Source: a virus | DNA length: 64,000 bases | IMG/VR virus record: IMGVR_UViG_3300047157_000243 | Location: 11,016 to 75,015 of that record | Strand: one strand, 5' to 3' | In this document: in pieces, positions 19,180 through 23,589 of the stretch | Layout of the letters: every line of letters begins with the position of its first letter | How positions within the stretch are numbered: position 1 is the first letter of the stretch | Position numbers and translations under genes: made by a program | Notes under the pieces: model-generated | Seen by the model: the letters and a program-made list of their open reading frames with translations, nothing else | What the model was told of the DNA's origin: nothing | Database searches by the model: none

Positions 19180-21075
19180 ATGAGTACAAATCCAATAGTT
19201 ATAACAAAACTTAAATCAAACTATAAGGTAGAATATAATTATAGAAAGAATTTAAGTGATTTCATCAAAGGATTCCCAGAAGACCAAAGGAGGATTAATG
19301 TTGATTACATACAAAATCCTGATGGTACTGGTTATGAAAGTTGGTACAGAGTTGTTTCTTCGGGATATATAGGCAAAGTTATTTCTTTTATAAAAGATAA
19401 TGGAATGCCTTTTAAGTTTACAAACTTAACTCCCGAAGAGGTTGAATCATTAAGAAGAGAATTTGTCAAAAGACAAGAGTCTTTACTAAAAGCACTGTCT
19501 ATAAAGACTGAAAATATAAACACTTCTAAAGTTGATTTTTCATTCATGAATATAGAGCCTTATGATTATCAAAAACAGGCTGCTATATTTTTTGATGCTT
19601 GTAATGGAAGGTCTTTGTTGGGCGACCAGCCAGGAGTTGGAAAGACTGCTGCTGCAATGACATATGCTTGCTGGAAGAATAAGAAAACCTTAATTGTATG
19701 TCCTGCAAACCTAAGGTTAAATTGGCGTAATGAAATACTTAAGTTTACAAAAGAGAAAGCTTTTGTATACAAATGGAAGCCAACCAAGAAATCCAAGAAA
19801 ATTAACCACCCTAAGGATGATTCTATGTTTCATATTATGAGCTACAGTTCTCTGGATACATACATAACTATAGAAATGTCTCACACATGTAAAAACGTAT
19901 TTTGTGGTTGGAAAGGTAGAAATAGTAAAAAAAGATATAAAGACAAAGTTTGTCCTAATTGCGGAGTAAGAGGTATGGTTAATTCTAGGGCGACAAAAAA
20001 CATAACATTCACACCAGACAAGATGGGAGAAGTGTTAAATGCGGAAGATTATGAAATATTGATAATGGATGAGGCTCATTATATTAAAAACAACTCAGCA
20101 GACAGAACTAAACTGGCAAAGAAGACGTTAAAAGATATACCTCAAAAATTGCTATTAACAGGTACTGCGATAAAAAGTAGACCTTATGAATTTTTCTCTT
20201 TATTAAACTTCCTATACCCAGAAGAGTGGAGTAATGCTCACTCTTTTGGGGTGAAATACTGTGCTGCAGAAAAAAACAATTTTGGATGGGACTATAGTGG
20301 AGCTTCTAATTTAGATGAGTTATTTGAAAAAATATCACCATTCTTTCTTAGGAGGTTGAAAAAAGATATATTAAAACACTTACCTCCAAAAACTTATACA
20401 GCTATACCTGTAGAGCTTACCCCTATAGAAACGAGAGAGTATAATAAGATTAAAAAAGGCATAAAAGAAGAGAGTTCTCAAGATGACCAAGAGGCTGACA
20501 ATAGAATGAATCACTTAACTAGAATTCAAAAGTTAAAACAATTCACCTCAGAAATAAAAATGAAAAGAGCATTTGAGTTTATTCAAGATATTATTGATGG
20601 AGACGAGAAGGTCGTAGTTTTTAGTCAATACAAAGGAGTTTCTTACGAAGTAGCTAATAAATTCGGAGATAAAGCAGTTGTATTTAATGGAGACATTAAT
20701 GCAAACAAAAAAGAAGAGGCTGTAGAGGCTTTTATGACGGATGACAATGTCAAGGTGTTCTCTGGTACAATAGGTGCAGCAGGAGTCGGTATAACGCTTA
20801 CATCGGCAAGTATTTCAATATTCATTGACCAACCATGGACTAGTGCAGATAGAGAACAGGCAGAAGATAGAATACACAGAGCGTCTTCCACGTCAGATAA
20901 AATACAAATTATAAGACTTATATGTCAAGATACAATTGATGAAGATATAGAAAAGCTTTTAAATCAAAAGTCCTCAATATTATCTAAAGTTTTAGATGGG
21001 AAAGAATTTGAGCAGACAGTTGAGGTTAAAGATGGTAATATATTCGGAGATTTAGTAAAATTATTATACAACTAA
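19180..21075 (+). CDS. SNF2-family (HARP/SMARCAL1-like) helicase with Zn-ribbon insertion
   Basis: GDQPGVGKT, DEAH, LTGT, RRLKKD, GVGITL, QAEDRIHR; inserted CKNVFC...CPNC. Confidence 0.9.
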   Translation: MSTNPIVITKLKSNYKVEYNYRKNLSDFIKGFPEDQRRINVDYIQNPDGTGYESWYRVVSSGYIGKVISFIKDNGMPFKFTNLTPEEVESLRREFVKRQESLLKALSIKTENINTSKVDFSFMNIEPYDYQKQAAIFFDACNGRSLLGDQPGVGKTAAAMTYACWKNKKTLIVCPANLRLNWRNEILKFTKEKAFVYKWKPTKKSKKINHPKDDSMFHIMSYSSLDTYITIEMSHTCKNVFCGWKGRNSKKRYKDKVCPNCGVRGMVNSRATKNITFTPDKMGEVLNAEDYEILIMDEAHYIKNNSADRTKLAKKTLKDIPQKLLLTGTAIKSRPYEFFSLLNFLYPEEWSNAHSFGVKYCAAEKNNFGWDYSGASNLDELFEKISPFFLRRLKKDILKHLPPKTYTAIPVELTPIETREYNKIKKGIKEESSQDDQEADNRMNHLTRIQKLKQFTSEIKMKRAFEFIQDIIDGDEKVVVFSQYKGVSYEVANKFGDKAVVFNGDINANKKEEAVEAFMTDDNVKVFSGTIGAAGVGITLTSASISIFIDQPWTSADREQAEDRIHRASSTSDKIQIIRLICQDTIDEDIEKLLNQKSSILSKVLDGKEFEQTVEVKDGNIFGDLVKLLYN

Positions 21076-21080
21076 AAAAC

Positions 21081-21353
21081 ATGAAAAAACTAAACACTAT
21101 TTTATACATTCTGATTTTAAGCTTCTTAATTACAGGATGTGCAGACGTAAGCCCTAACGCAATCGATTGTGTTAATGAATCTTCTTATGGATTCTTTGGA
21201 GGCCTATGGCATGGACTAATATCAATATTTTCTTTTATAGGAAGTTTGTTTATGGATGATGTGGCGGTGTATGCTTATAACAACAATGGAGCTTGGTATG
21301 ATTTTGGTTTTTTACTGGGAGTTGGGGCTTTTGCTTCTCGTGCGACAAAGTAG
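21081..21353 (+). CDS. Lipoprotein/membrane protein
   Basis: Lipobox LITGC; GFFGGLWHG...NNNGAWYDFGF hydrophobic domain. Confidence 0.7.
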   Translation: MKKLNTILYILILSFLITGCADVSPNAIDCVNESSYGFFGGLWHGLISIFSFIGSLFMDDVAVYAYNNNGAWYDFGFLLGVGAFASRATK

Positions 21354-21403
21354 TAATTTGACAATTAAAATAAATATATTTTTTATCTAATGTAATATTT
21401 TTA

Positions 21404-21460: not shown

Positions 21461-21537
21461 GGACGGGTAGCTCAGCTGGATAGAGCATCTGCCTTCTAAG
21501 CAGACGGTCGAAGGTTCGAATCCTTCTCCGTTCACCA
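21461..21537 (+). tRNA. tRNA-Arg(TCT)
   Basis: Canonical cloverleaf; anticodon arm TCTGC-CT TCT AA-GCAGA; GGTTCGAATCC; encoded CCA. Confidence 0.95.
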
Positions 21538-21544
21538 TTTAATA

Positions 21545-21618
21545 GGGCCTCTAGCTCAGCTGGTTAGAGCAACTGACTCATAATCAGTAGGTCACAGGTT
21601 CGAACCCTGTGGGGCCCA
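21545..21618 (+). tRNA. tRNA with CAT anticodon (probably Ile2, else elongator Met)
   Basis: GGGCCTC/GGGGCCC acceptor; ACTGA-CT CAT AA-TCAGT; GGTTCGAACCC; no encoded CCA. Confidence 0.9.
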
Positions 21619-21635
21619 CTCAAATATTTTATCAT

Positions 21636-21703
21636 TGCAAGCAGTTGTCACCTTCAACTTTAATAAGGAGAGTTTAATAGTCACTTCTTAGACACTGCTT
21701 GCA
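21636..21703 (+). ncRNA. Putative small structured RNA (element A)
   Basis: TGCAAGCAG/CTGCTTGCA and TGTC/GACA terminal stems; inner TAAGGAG/CTTCTTA stem. Confidence 0.55.
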
Positions 21704-21710
21704 TCTTATT

Positions 21711-21906
21711 AACCTGACACAGCAGATTAATAGAGGTTGTACGGTCCAAATTTACTCTTTAAAATATTAAGGGACCTATTCTGGTGACAATTCCAGACGC
21801 GGAGATGTGATGAAACTTTGGACATTTAGTTAGTGCATTAACTGATGTCTGTATGGGATTAAGCCGTGAAAAACGGGGCGGACTGTGAAAAAAACTGCCC
21901 CTTTTT
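21711..21906 (+). ncRNA. Putative multi-hairpin RNA (element B)
   Basis: Serial stems AACCT/AGGTT, GGTCC/GGACC, TCTGG/CCAGA, GACATTTAGTTA/TAACTGATGTC, GGGGCGG/CTGCCCC plus T-run; GC-rich relative to flanks, no ORF. Confidence 0.45.
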
Positions 21907-21937
21907 ATATTTTATTTTTTAAAAACATTTAAAATAC

Positions 21938-22104
21938 GTGCTGTTTAATCTGCGGCTAGTCCAGTCCATAGGATGATGAGAAATGGTGTGATAACCATAT
22001 GGAGATACTTCGACAGTAATTAAATTTACACAAGTGTATGAGGATAGGTGTGAGACTTTGAGGCTGTGCCGCCAGGTGCAGATTAGTCGTCCTTGAGATA
22101 GCAC
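21938..22104 (+). ncRNA. Putative nested-helix RNA (element C)
   Basis: Ends pair (GTGCTGTTT/AGATAGCAC, TAATCTGC/GCAGATTA); inner TCCAT/ATGGA and ATGGT/ACCAT. Confidence 0.5.
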
Positions 22105-22125
22105 CCGCTTGATGTCGGAATTAAA

Positions 22126-22836
22126 TTAAATAAGTTCTATTAATTCCTCAAATTGCTTTTCTGATAATCTATCAAAAGATATTTTTTTCTTGATATTTTT
22201 GGAGTATATTAATTCTTCGTTTGGCTCATCTACATACCAATCCTTTCCTCCAATTTTTACTTTAGGCAAATCTAGCTCCACCTTTTTTCTGCTGCCCCCC
22301 TTAGATTTTGCTTTTTCACTATTTAGCTTTGTGAAAAATAATTCGTTTTTAATAATTCTATCAACTCTTAACTTTTCTTTTGTTTGAGGAACATCATCTT
22401 TGGCAAAATATATTGTTTGTATTTCATTATTTCTAATGATAGCATATATTTTATTTCCGTTGCTTTTAGTTTTTCTGTCTAAAAAAAATAAATTTTTTCC
22501 AACTACATCTAATCTATCCTCCTCTGAATAGTAGTTTATTCTTTTTGGGTCTATCCTTATGTATGCTAATATTACTGCAAAATCTTCATTTTTTGGAAAT
22601 TCGTAACCCTCTATAAGTCTATATTTTCTTTTTATACTTTCTCTTTCATCACTACTCAGGCTATATGTCCCTACTGACTTATAATCTGGCTCAAAAACAT
22701 TTGTTGAACCTCTCTCTTCATATCCAACTTGAATATTGTCTCTATCTATAAACCTTTCTGACAGTCTATCTAAAGAGTGTTCGGCAGAAAAGGCTTCTTC
22801 CAAAATTTCCTTAACAATTTTTCGAATAGAATTCAT
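22126..22836 (-). CDS. Hypothetical protein with MNSIRKIVKEILEE tag
   Basis: 236 aa; shared N-terminal helix. Confidence 0.55.
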   Translation of the reverse strand: MNSIRKIVKEILEEAFSAEHSLDRLSERFIDRDNIQVGYEERGSTNVFEPDYKSVGTYSLSSDERESIKRKYRLIEGYEFPKNEDFAVILAYIRIDPKRINYYSEEDRLDVVGKNLFFLDRKTKSNGNKIYAIIRNNEIQTIYFAKDDVPQTKEKLRVDRIIKNELFFTKLNSEKAKSKGGSRKKVELDLPKVKIGGKDWYVDEPNEELIYSKNIKKKISFDRLSEKQFEELIELI

Positions 22837-22893: not shown

Positions 22894-23589
22894 ATGAAGA
22901 GAAAAATGTTAGTTTTAGTTGGACCTCCTTCTGTGGGAAAGTCAACTTGGATAGCCTCAAACTACCCAGAAGCGTATATTATTAATAGAGACGACATTGT
23001 AGAATCGGTAGCATCAAGCTACGGATGGACTTATGATGATATGTTTGCGACACCACCAGAATATGCAGAAGTAGGTGATGTTGACGAAAAGTACGGTACA
23101 GTCAAAGAGTCTCCATCGTGGATGACCTGGACTGAAACTATATTTGACAAAGTTTTTGAAGCAAATGGAAAAGTTCAAAAACTAATGAATGATAAAGTCT
23201 CTCAAGCACACCCTAGCAGCAAAGATGTTGTTGTTGATATGACAAATATGAACACAAACTCCAGAAAAAATGCAATGAAAGCAATAGAGGGAAATGAGAG
23301 TGAATACCACAAAGTGGCTGTAGACTTTAAATTTCAAGGAGCAGAAGATGTGATAAAAAAAATGGCAGAAAAAAGAGCTGAATCAGCTAAGAGAATGGGT
23401 AAGTCTAAAACTATTCCTTCAGATGTTTTTAATAAAATGTTTTCATCATACTCCAAACCATCTACTTCAGAGGGTTTTGATGAAATAGTGTCTGTTGATA
23501 ATGTTGAAAACCTTAAATCTTCTTTAGACAAAGATGATTTAAAAGAATCAATTAGGAAAGAAATAAGAAAAGAGTTATGGAATTTATAG
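22894..23589 (+). CDS. AAA_33/polynucleotide-kinase-like P-loop kinase with C-terminal LKESIRKEIRKEL tag
   Basis: GPPSVGKST, INRDD, VVVDMTN, R..R lid, P..SEGFD; late motif 22883-22889. Confidence 0.75.
   Translation: MKRKMLVLVGPPSVGKSTWIASNYPEAYIINRDDIVESVASSYGWTYDDMFATPPEYAEVGDVDEKYGTVKESPSWMTWTETIFDKVFEANGKVQKLMNDKVSQAHPSSKDVVVDMTNMNTNSRKNAMKAIEGNESEYHKVAVDFKFQGAEDVIKKMAEKRAESAKRMGKSKTIPSDVFNKMFSSYSKPSTSEGFDEIVSVDNVENLKSSLDKDDLKESIRKEIRKELWNL

What the first reader, a model, noticed from the sequence alone, without database searches (positions are those of the whole stretch)
21711..22104. About 400 nt of ornate non-coding structure with a possible switch pairing
Seen: an ORF-free region, GC-rich relative to flanks, with a chain of five or six hairpins (B) and a nested multi-helix domain (C). 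TTAATCTGC (21945-21953) can pair either with GCAGATTA near 22078 or with GCAGATTAA in the first loop of B (21722), and these pairings are mutually exclusive. Known: large ornate RNAs such as GOLLD and ROOL occur beside phage tRNAs. Inference: one large or two medium undescribed ncRNAs; I cannot assign a family.
Basis: partly seen in the sequence, partly recalled or inferred. Interest (0 to 1): 0.7.

Follow-up and report, generated by a model that had tools for sequence, protein, structure and literature searches.

The report
Three mobile structured RNAs beside phage tRNAs
The flagged 400 bases are not one RNA with a switch but two (three with a neighbouring hairpin) separate, undescribed structured RNA genes that sit behind the tRNA genes of an uncultured marine phage and also occur nearly unchanged in phages that share no detectable proteins with it over the stretches compared; their function is unknown.

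Summary
The structure is real; the "switch" is not supported. The window is part of a 75-kb marine phage contig. After tRNA-Arg and tRNA-Met, three independent + strand RNA modules follow.

- A, 21637-21702: a hairpin with an invariant 12-nt loop.
- B, 21703-21907: about 195 nt, six helices including a GGUCC/GGACC pairing, ending in an intrinsic terminator.
- C, 21933-22118: about 185 nt, a multi-branched fold.

None matches Rfam 15. B has 36 distinct copies in marine viral and metagenome contigs. In them 97% of helix positions pair, 10 pairs show compensatory change, and no shuffle of 500 does as well. C (9 copies) and A (11 copies) also covary. Most B copies lack A and C and lie between unrelated small genes in phages that share no proteins with this one, so the modules move horizontally.

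Function is unknown. The best lead (about 30%): in one lineage A and B lie directly behind a protein whose predicted fold is Ro60, the partner of Y RNAs. However, the defining Y-RNA motifs are absent, and a 93%-complete B-bearing genome lacks Ro60.

First readers of this scan had already noted B-like RNAs on other DNA.

The parts
21461..21537 (+). tRNA-Arg (TCT), first gene of the RNA island
   Evidence: ARAGORN; Rfam tRNA 68.3 bits
21545..21619 (+). tRNA-Met (CAT)
   Evidence: ARAGORN; Rfam tRNA 71.7 bits
21637..21702 (+). Hairpin with an 8+4-bp terminal stem carrying one bulged U, a variable internal loop, a 7-bp inner stem and an invariant 12-nt loop AGUUUAAUAGUC.
   Evidence: 11 distinct copies. 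The terminal stem has AU<->GC compensatory change; the inner stem changes GU/AU/GC. Long variants with an inserted hairpin occur in L237, L206 and L213.
21703..21907 (+). Module B: about 195-nt structured RNA. P1 21709-16/21723-30; GGUCC 21743-47 pairs with GGACC 21772-76 (a possible pseudoknot with AGAG/CUCU); P3 21781-84/21793-96; P4 21798-802/21864-68 enclosing P5 21819-25/21845-51; terminator at the 3' end.
   Evidence: Model R1 scores 209.8 bits here. 36 distinct copies; 97.1% of cells paired; 10 pairs with change on both sides; 0 of 500 shuffles as good; 32-48% paired when partners are slid.
21875..21906 (+). Intrinsic terminator of B: 7-bp G+C-rich stem, conserved 13-nt loop ACUGUGAAAAAAA, U5 tract
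   Evidence: The stem covaries (CG<->UA in 5 copies; GGGGCAG <-> GAGGGCAG with a matching 3' strand). The consensus scan misses it because the loop is longer than 8 nt.
21933..22118 (+). Module C: about 185-nt multi-branched RNA. A closing helix (CGU+CAAGUG with CGCUUGAUG) carries five small hairpins and a 3' domain (GGUGU/GCACC with an inner hairpin).
   Evidence: 9 copies in 3 lineages, including L238 in an unrelated context. 99.3% of cells paired; 6 pairs with change on both sides; 0 of 500 shuffles as good.
21342..21386 (+). Promoter-like sites upstream of tRNA-Arg (GCGACA-18-TAAAAT; also TTGACA at 21358-63). Possible start of the island's transcript.
   Evidence: Consensus scan and direct reading. 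Unverified.

Best explanation
The stretch is the distal part of a phage stable-RNA island: tRNA-Arg, tRNA-Met, then three separately folding RNA genes A, B and C on the + strand. Each is a family of its own that is exchanged horizontally among marine phages.

Shown:
- each module has its own covariation-supported fold;
- B ends in a covarying intrinsic terminator;
- B, A and C occur without each other, in changed order and in unrelated gene contexts;
- there is no Rfam family, no coding frame and no conserved B-C pairing.

Inferred:
- The island is transcribed from a promoter upstream of tRNA-Arg.
- tRNA 3' processing frees the 5' side of A/B.
- B's 3' end is made by termination.
- C comes from read-through of the short U5 tract or from a conserved TAAAAT box at about 21934.
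- The products act in trans as stable protein-binding RNAs within the phage's tRNA/RNA-repair toolkit. A polynucleotide-kinase-like gene lies about 800 nt downstream.

Most likely partner, at about 30% odds: a Ro60-type ring protein, with A and/or B acting like Y RNAs that gate it or tether it to exonucleases. In one phage lineage A and B lie directly behind a gene whose product has the Ro60 fold, and such genes sit inside phage tRNA clusters.
For: Families and modularity.
- No Rfam match.
- Homologues and modularity.
- Covariation: B; C; A.
- Many GU<->AU/GC changes fit the + strand only.

Horizontal spread.
- B is about 85-90% identical in loci that share no proteins with this genome, apart from one repeat protein.
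- An 88%-complete relative of this phage lacks B.

Not coding.

Ro60 lead.
- A 470-aa DUF2828+DUF7788 protein (phrog_850, "RNA-binding protein") ends 17-70 nt upstream of A or B in L205, L237 and L206, and about 430 nt upstream of A in L235.
- Its model (pLDDT 82) has Ro60/TROVE structures as its 12 best PDB matches, including Thermus phage phiLo Ro60 (E 1.7e-7).
- Phage and bacterial Ro60 genes have Y-like RNAs next to them (PMC12135203, PMC4201824).
- 29 of 80 loci with this protein carry tRNAs, 0.35 tRNA per kb against 0.018 in 142 control loci.
- A has the Y-RNA layout: a bulged terminal stem plus an internal loop.
Against: - No transcript data.
- The Ro60 adjacency comes from one protein lineage (88-98% identical), so it is in effect one observation.
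- None of 80 more distant Ro60-like loci holds A, B or C.
- A 93%-complete genome with B has no TROVE or DUF2828 gene.
- No such gene is in the window contig or its four sister contigs, all 11-27% complete.
- The Y-RNA motif (CGAA / GNCGAAN0-1G) and the tRNA-like domain are absent. YrlA matches only the real tRNAs, at E 0.17.
- In most loci B fills the whole gap between two same-strand ORFs, and the next start codon lies 24-31 nt after the U-tract. That fits a cis role as well.
Confidence: 0.5

Rival explanations
1. B is a cis-acting leader: a riboswitch-like or protein- or tRNA-responsive attenuator. Its terminator gates read-through from the upstream gene into whatever lies downstream (small accessory genes elsewhere, RNA C here).
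For: - A large conserved fold lies directly before a terminator.
- In about 24 B-only loci the next same-strand ORF starts 21-43 nt after the U-tract, which leaves no room for a promoter. A conserved AU-rich spacer precedes at least three unrelated downstream gene families.
- The U-tract is short (5 U), which suggests partial termination.
Against: - Downstream genes fall into at least 8 unrelated families, unlike a metabolite riboswitch.
- I found no alternative pairing that competes with the terminator. The candidate CCGU/ACGG is lost in variants (reading).
- The terminator stem covaries freely with no third partner.
- In the window the downstream element is another RNA.
Confidence: 0.22
2. 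B and/or C is a ribozyme, self-cleaving or otherwise, of a new class. It would be one of the small catalytic RNAs that scatter through phage intergenic regions.
For: - There are many invariant unpaired nucleotides beside variable peripheral stems (the P3 loop and the P5 extension).
- A pseudoknot-type pairing is present.
- The gene contexts are varied.
- A pistol ribozyme lies in the same kind of neighbourhood, about 465 nt upstream of a Ro60-like gene in L248 and L249.
Against: - No known ribozyme model matches.
- No cleavage-site signature can be read from sequence alone.
- B's conserved terminator fits a primary transcript end rather than a cleavage product.
Confidence: 0.08
3. One reading: one ~400-nt RNA, or a B-C pair, that toggles between the TTAATCTGC/GCAGATTAA (B) pairing and the TTAATCTGC/GCAGATTA (C) pairing.
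For: Both complements are perfect in the window. Read-through of the U5 terminator could put B and C on one transcript.
Against: - A 9-nt complement arises in 46 of 500 shuffles.
- Homologues keep 6-8 of 9 positions without compensation.
- The B segment is already paired within a covarying helix.
- Most B copies have no C, and L238 has C without B.
Confidence: 0.04
4. The conservation acts at the DNA level: a recombination or regulatory cassette that shuffles small genes (as described for T4-type phages, recalled from memory), or the antisense of a small gene. The RNA folds would then be incidental.
For: - The module boundaries are sharp and the neighbours differ from locus to locus.
- The spacer after the terminator is conserved.
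- The minus-strand frames over C are unusually open.
Against: - Compensatory and GU-compatible changes point to selection on + strand RNA helices.
- The minus-strand frames shift between homologues.
Confidence: 0.06

Closest known systems
Y RNAs / Y-RNA-like RNAs beside Ro60 genes (bacterial YrlA, PMC4201824; Thermus phage phiLo Yrl1/Yrl2, PMC12135203)
   Same: - They are small structured RNAs encoded next to a Ro60-fold gene, which holds for A and B in the L205 lineage.
- A has a terminal stem made of its 5' and 3' ends, with a bulge and an internal loop.
- The genomic setting is among tRNAs and RNA-repair genes.
   Different: - There is no CGAA / GNCGAAN0-1G motif, no tRNA-like T/D arms and no YrlA model hit.
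- A is shorter (66 nt) and B is longer (195 nt, pseudoknot-type pairing, own terminator) than the 80-130 nt described.
- The Ro60-like gene is absent from the window contig and from a near-complete genome that carries B.
Small stable RNAs in the phage T4 tRNA gene cluster (species 1 and 2, rnaC/rnaD; from my own knowledge, not checked here)
   Same: Non-tRNA stable RNAs of unknown function, encoded within or directly after a phage tRNA cluster and presumably co-transcribed and processed with the tRNAs.
   Different: The present modules also occur far from tRNAs and move between unrelated phages.
GOLLD and ROOL large ornate RNAs
   Same: Phage-borne and often near tRNAs, with complex folds and unknown function.
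   Different: - Neither model matches, although both families should be in Rfam (from memory).
- Those RNAs are single units several hundred nt long (from memory), whereas here there are separate modules of about 66, 195 and 185 nt.
Terminator-type riboswitches and attenuators
   Same: B is a conserved multi-helix domain immediately followed by an intrinsic terminator, with a gene start close behind.
   Different: No antiterminator was detected, the downstream genes are unrelated to one another, and no known aptamer class matches.

Membership tests
Y RNA / YrlA | Encoded next to a Ro60 (TROVE) gene | tested here: inconclusive
   Met for A and B in L205, L237, L235 and L206. Not met in the window contig or its sister contigs, which are fragments, nor in the 93%-complete genome G005, which carries B.
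Y RNA / YrlA | Long stem formed by the 5' and 3' ends, with a bulge and a large internal loop | tested here: met
   True of A: an 8+4-bp covarying terminal stem with one bulged U and an internal loop. Not true of B or C.
Y RNA / YrlA | Conserved Ro-binding motif (CGAA; GNCGAAN0-1G; vertebrate GGUCCGA) | tested here: not met
   The motif is absent from A in all 11 copies. B has only GGUCCAA, and in a different structural position.
Y RNA / YrlA | tRNA-like domain (T and D arms); match to Rfam YrlA | tested here: not met
   YrlA (RF02553) matches only the true tRNAs at 21486-21596, with 20 bits against a gathering score of 69.
Y RNA / YrlA | Binds Ro60 | not testable with these tools
   Needs EMSA or pull-down.
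GOLLD / ROOL | Match to the family covariance model | tested here: not met
   No hit at the gathering score or at E<=10. A terminator splits the region.
Terminator-type riboswitch | Conserved aptamer-like fold followed by an intrinsic terminator | tested here: met
   True of B.
Terminator-type riboswitch | Mutually exclusive antiterminator pairing | tested here: inconclusive
   No conserved competitor was found by inspection or by an all-column covariation scan. Absence is not proven.
Terminator-type riboswitch | Coherent class of regulated genes | tested here: not met
   At least 8 unrelated downstream ORF families.
Any Rfam 15 family | Covariance-model match | tested here: not met
   Only tRNAs match.

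The most novel reading that the evidence does not exclude
B is a new class of functional RNA with a ligand- or factor-sensing or catalytic core. It travels between unrelated marine phages as a cassette placed in front of diverse small accessory genes, possibly anti-defence genes, and lets the phage gate them according to host state.
Probability: 0.12. Interest if true: 0.85.

Novelty: new variant of a known kind. Interest (0 to 1): 0.58.

Why it matters
Structured RNAs of nearly 200 nt with covariation support, many invariant unpaired nucleotides and a probable pseudoknot are uncommon. In the past such RNAs have turned out to be ribozymes, riboswitches or protein scaffolds.

Here three such families sit together behind phage tRNAs and move between unrelated phages, which implies a portable benefit. 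The link to a very abundant Ro60-fold protein of marine phages (over 6,900 relatives, embedded in tRNA clusters) gives a concrete hypothesis to test. It could extend Ro60/Y-RNA biology, and the tRNA-centred phage-host conflict, to uncultured ocean viruses.

Tried and rejected
Searches that found nothing.
- Isolate phages: blastn found only the tRNAs.
- Bacterial and archaeal genomes: B's 19-mer has 0 hits.
- Model R1 on 67 other loci and on 5 relatives' whole records: nothing.
- L058 held B's 15-mer and a Ro60-like gene, but the 15-mer is a chance match inside a coding region.
- Rfam scan of 20 Ro60-like loci: no YrlA.
- Atlas, Pfam and PHROGs for the convergent 236-aa gene: nothing.

Pairings and contexts tested.
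- Kissing pairing between B's P1 loop (CACAG) and the terminator loop (CUGUG): one compensatory case (L199), two wobble cases and five mismatched copies, so inconclusive.
- The AGAG/CUCU helix of the possible pseudoknot never varies, so it is untested.
- A's proposed AACUUU/AGAGUU pseudoknot: its linker is variable or deleted in several copies, so rejected.
- B as a marker of one downstream gene family: rejected.

Tools that failed or were unavailable.
No support either way.
- The single-sequence fold of the Ro60-like protein was unusable (pLDDT 37).
- Sequence-only PDB searches missed Ro60.
- The catalogue of 10,006 candidate viral RNAs (PMC10690425) could hold these motifs, but its tables are not held.

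Full report
**Setting.** The window is bases 11016-75015 of a 75-kb IMG/VR virus contig judged about 25% complete. Runs that hold the stretch are seawater and marine viral metagenomes. The genome has about 30% G+C. Upstream lies an SNF2-type helicase gene (19180-21075). tRNA-Arg(TCT) and tRNA-Met(CAT) follow at 21461-21619. Downstream are a convergent 236-aa gene of no known family (22126-22836, minus strand) and a P-loop kinase resembling polynucleotide kinase (22894-23589). No isolate phage is close: the helicase is at most 32% identical.

**Checking the observation.** No + strand ORF of 30 aa or more lies between 21620 and 22125. The region is mildly richer in G+C than its flanks. The + strand folds better than shuffles, with z -2.6 for 21620-21910 and -1.7 for 21930-22125. 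The minus strand of the second part gives z +0.3. Rfam 15 reports only the tRNAs, even at E<=10. A hairpin with a 7-bp G+C-rich stem and a U5 tract (21875-21906) splits the region. The terminator scan misses it because its loop is 13 nt long.

**Homologues show three modules, not one RNA.**
- Loci found through the helicase and the 236-aa gene gave four sister contigs with the whole stretch at about 85% DNA identity.
- Exact-word scans of viral and metagenome collections, followed by nhmmer, raised this to 36 distinct copies of the part 21703-21907, here called B.
- Most B copies lack the hairpin that precedes B in the window (A, 21637-21702). They also lack the part after the terminator (C, 21933-22118).
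- A occurs elsewhere, upstream or up to 2 kb downstream of B.
- C occurs alone between two + strand ORFs in L238.
- The own contig holds one copy of each module.

**Structure of B.** I proposed six helices on the 36-sequence alignment and counted pairs.
- On the MAFFT alignment 95.2% of cells pair and 6 pairs change on both sides.
- On the model-fitted alignment 97.1% pair and 10 pairs change on both sides. No shuffle of 500 reaches this, and 32-48% pair when partners are slid. The fitted alignment leans towards the structure.
- GGUCC/GGACC becomes GGCCC/GGGCC in one copy and AGUCC/GGACU in another.
- CACGG/CCGUG becomes CAGUG/CACUG or GAUGG/CCAUU.
- CUGG/CCAG becomes CUAG/CUAG.
- The terminator stem changes from GGGGCAG to GAGGGUAG with matching 3' strands.
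- Many changes are GU<->AU/GC, which are compatible only with the + strand.
- The AGAG/CUCU helix, which would make GGUCC/GGACC an H-type pseudoknot, never varies and so is untested.
- The 13-nt terminator loop and about 60 unpaired positions are nearly invariant.

**Structures of C and A.**
- C has nine copies in three lineages. They support a closing helix, five small hairpins and a 3' domain, with 99.3% of cells paired and 6 compensated pairs.
- A has eleven short copies. They show a covarying terminal stem with one bulge, a variable linker, a covarying inner stem and an invariant loop AGUUUAAUAGUC. Three loci carry a longer A with an inserted hairpin.

**The switch.**
- GCAGATTAA (21722-30) is the 3' strand of B's first helix, which covaries with its partner inside B.
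- TTAATCTGC (21945-53) is the loop and 3' strand of C's first hairpin. That hairpin is compensated in L238.
- A perfect 9-nt B x C complement arises in 46 of 500 shuffles.
- In the other seven loci with both modules, 6-8 of 9 positions pair without compensation.
- The C-internal partner is kept in one C subtype only.
- I therefore reject the switch as a conserved feature.

**Not coding.** The minus strand over C stays open for 54-61 codons in all copies. However, single-base indels move the conserved blocks between frames in different homologues.

**Context and mobility.**
- In B-only loci the upstream ORF often ends in B's first bases. A same-strand ORF starts 24-31 nt after the U-tract, behind a conserved AU-rich spacer.
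- The downstream ORFs fall into at least 8 unrelated families.
- These loci share no proteins with the window genome except one repeat protein, yet B is 85-90% identical.
- Relatives of the window phage that are 88% and 91% complete lack B.
- The modules are therefore accessory and horizontally exchanged.
- B's 19-mer is absent from 185,579 prokaryote genomes.

**A functional lead.**
- In L205, L237 and L206 a 470-aa protein ends 17-70 nt before A or B. In L235 its homologue ends about 430 nt before A.
- The protein carries DUF2828+DUF7788 and matches phrog_850, annotated "RNA-binding protein".
- It has over 6,900 relatives.
- With an alignment, AlphaFold gives pLDDT 82.
- The 12 best PDB matches are all Ro60/TROVE, including Thermus phage phiLo Ro60 (E 1.7e-7 to 1.7e-4, full length).
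- Ro60 genes of bacteria and phages have Y-type partner RNAs next to them (PMC4201824; PMC12135203). Jumbo-phage TROVE proteins have been assigned to RNA repair (PMC7824862).
- Among 80 further loci with this protein, 29 carry tRNAs on the same strand. Density is 0.35 per kb against 0.018 in 142 control loci.
- So Ro60-like genes, tRNA clusters and the A/B modules are linked pairwise.

**Limits of the lead.**
- The adjacency rests on one protein lineage.
- None of the 80 loci holds A, B or C.
- A 93%-complete genome with B has no TROVE or DUF2828 gene.
- The window's contig family shows none either, though all are fragments.
- The Y-RNA motifs and the tRNA-like domain are missing.
- I rate the Ro60-partner reading at about 0.3. 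I do not file the RNAs as Y RNAs.

**Verdict.** There are two (with A, three) real, undescribed, mobile structured RNA families. There is no single ornate RNA and no switch. The main rivals for B are a cis-acting attenuator and a ribozyme. Only expression and biochemical data can decide between them. First readers of this scan had already noted B-like and A-like elements on other DNA. I tested and confirmed their GGUCC/GGACC and CACGG/CCGUG pairings.

Noticed in passing
L003:8466-8545 (also L002, L010, L231, L197, just upstream of A): A tRNA-like element that ARAGORN does not call. It has a 7-bp acceptor-like stem, an anticodon-like loop CUCAUGA (CAU), a long variable arm and a T-arm-like hairpin, and it directly precedes module A. 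In L010 its 5' half looks degraded.
   Followed up: partly
window 58993-59112: An Rfam tRNA match of 120 nt (34.4 bits) lies right after tRNA-Phe (58912-58986). ARAGORN does not call it. It may be a tRNA with an insertion or intron.
   Followed up: no
L248:2470-2535 and L249:2470-2535: A pistol self-cleaving ribozyme (51 bits, above the gathering score) lies about 465 nt upstream of a Ro60-like gene in a marine phage contig.
   Followed up: no
L240-L319 (80 viral loci): The DUF2828+DUF7788 (Ro60-fold) gene of phages is embedded in tRNA clusters. 29 of 80 loci carry tRNAs, about 19 times the tRNA density of control loci, and often a tRNA starts 12-70 nt after the gene's stop codon.
   Followed up: partly
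L004:3342-4009; L002:8523-9881: A tandem array of near-identical 107-aa ORFs (period 344 bp; two and four copies) lies between the helicase gene and the tRNAs in sister contigs. It is absent from the window.
   Followed up: no
window 21664-21693 (A) and 21943-21962 (C): A's invariant loop and the start of C share GUUUAAU...UAGUC. A's inner stem (UAAGGAG with CUUC(C)UUA) looks like a Shine-Dalgarno/anti-Shine-Dalgarno duplex. Whether either resemblance means anything is unknown.
   Followed up: no
window 22894-23589: A P-loop kinase resembling polynucleotide kinase (AAA_33; phrog_505) lies about 800 nt from the RNA island, which fits an RNA-repair neighbourhood.
   Followed up: partly
window 21926-21940: CATTTAAAAT, with a -10-like TAAAAT, is conserved before C in 7 of 8 sister loci. 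It could be a promoter for C. L003 has AAGGT there.
   Followed up: no
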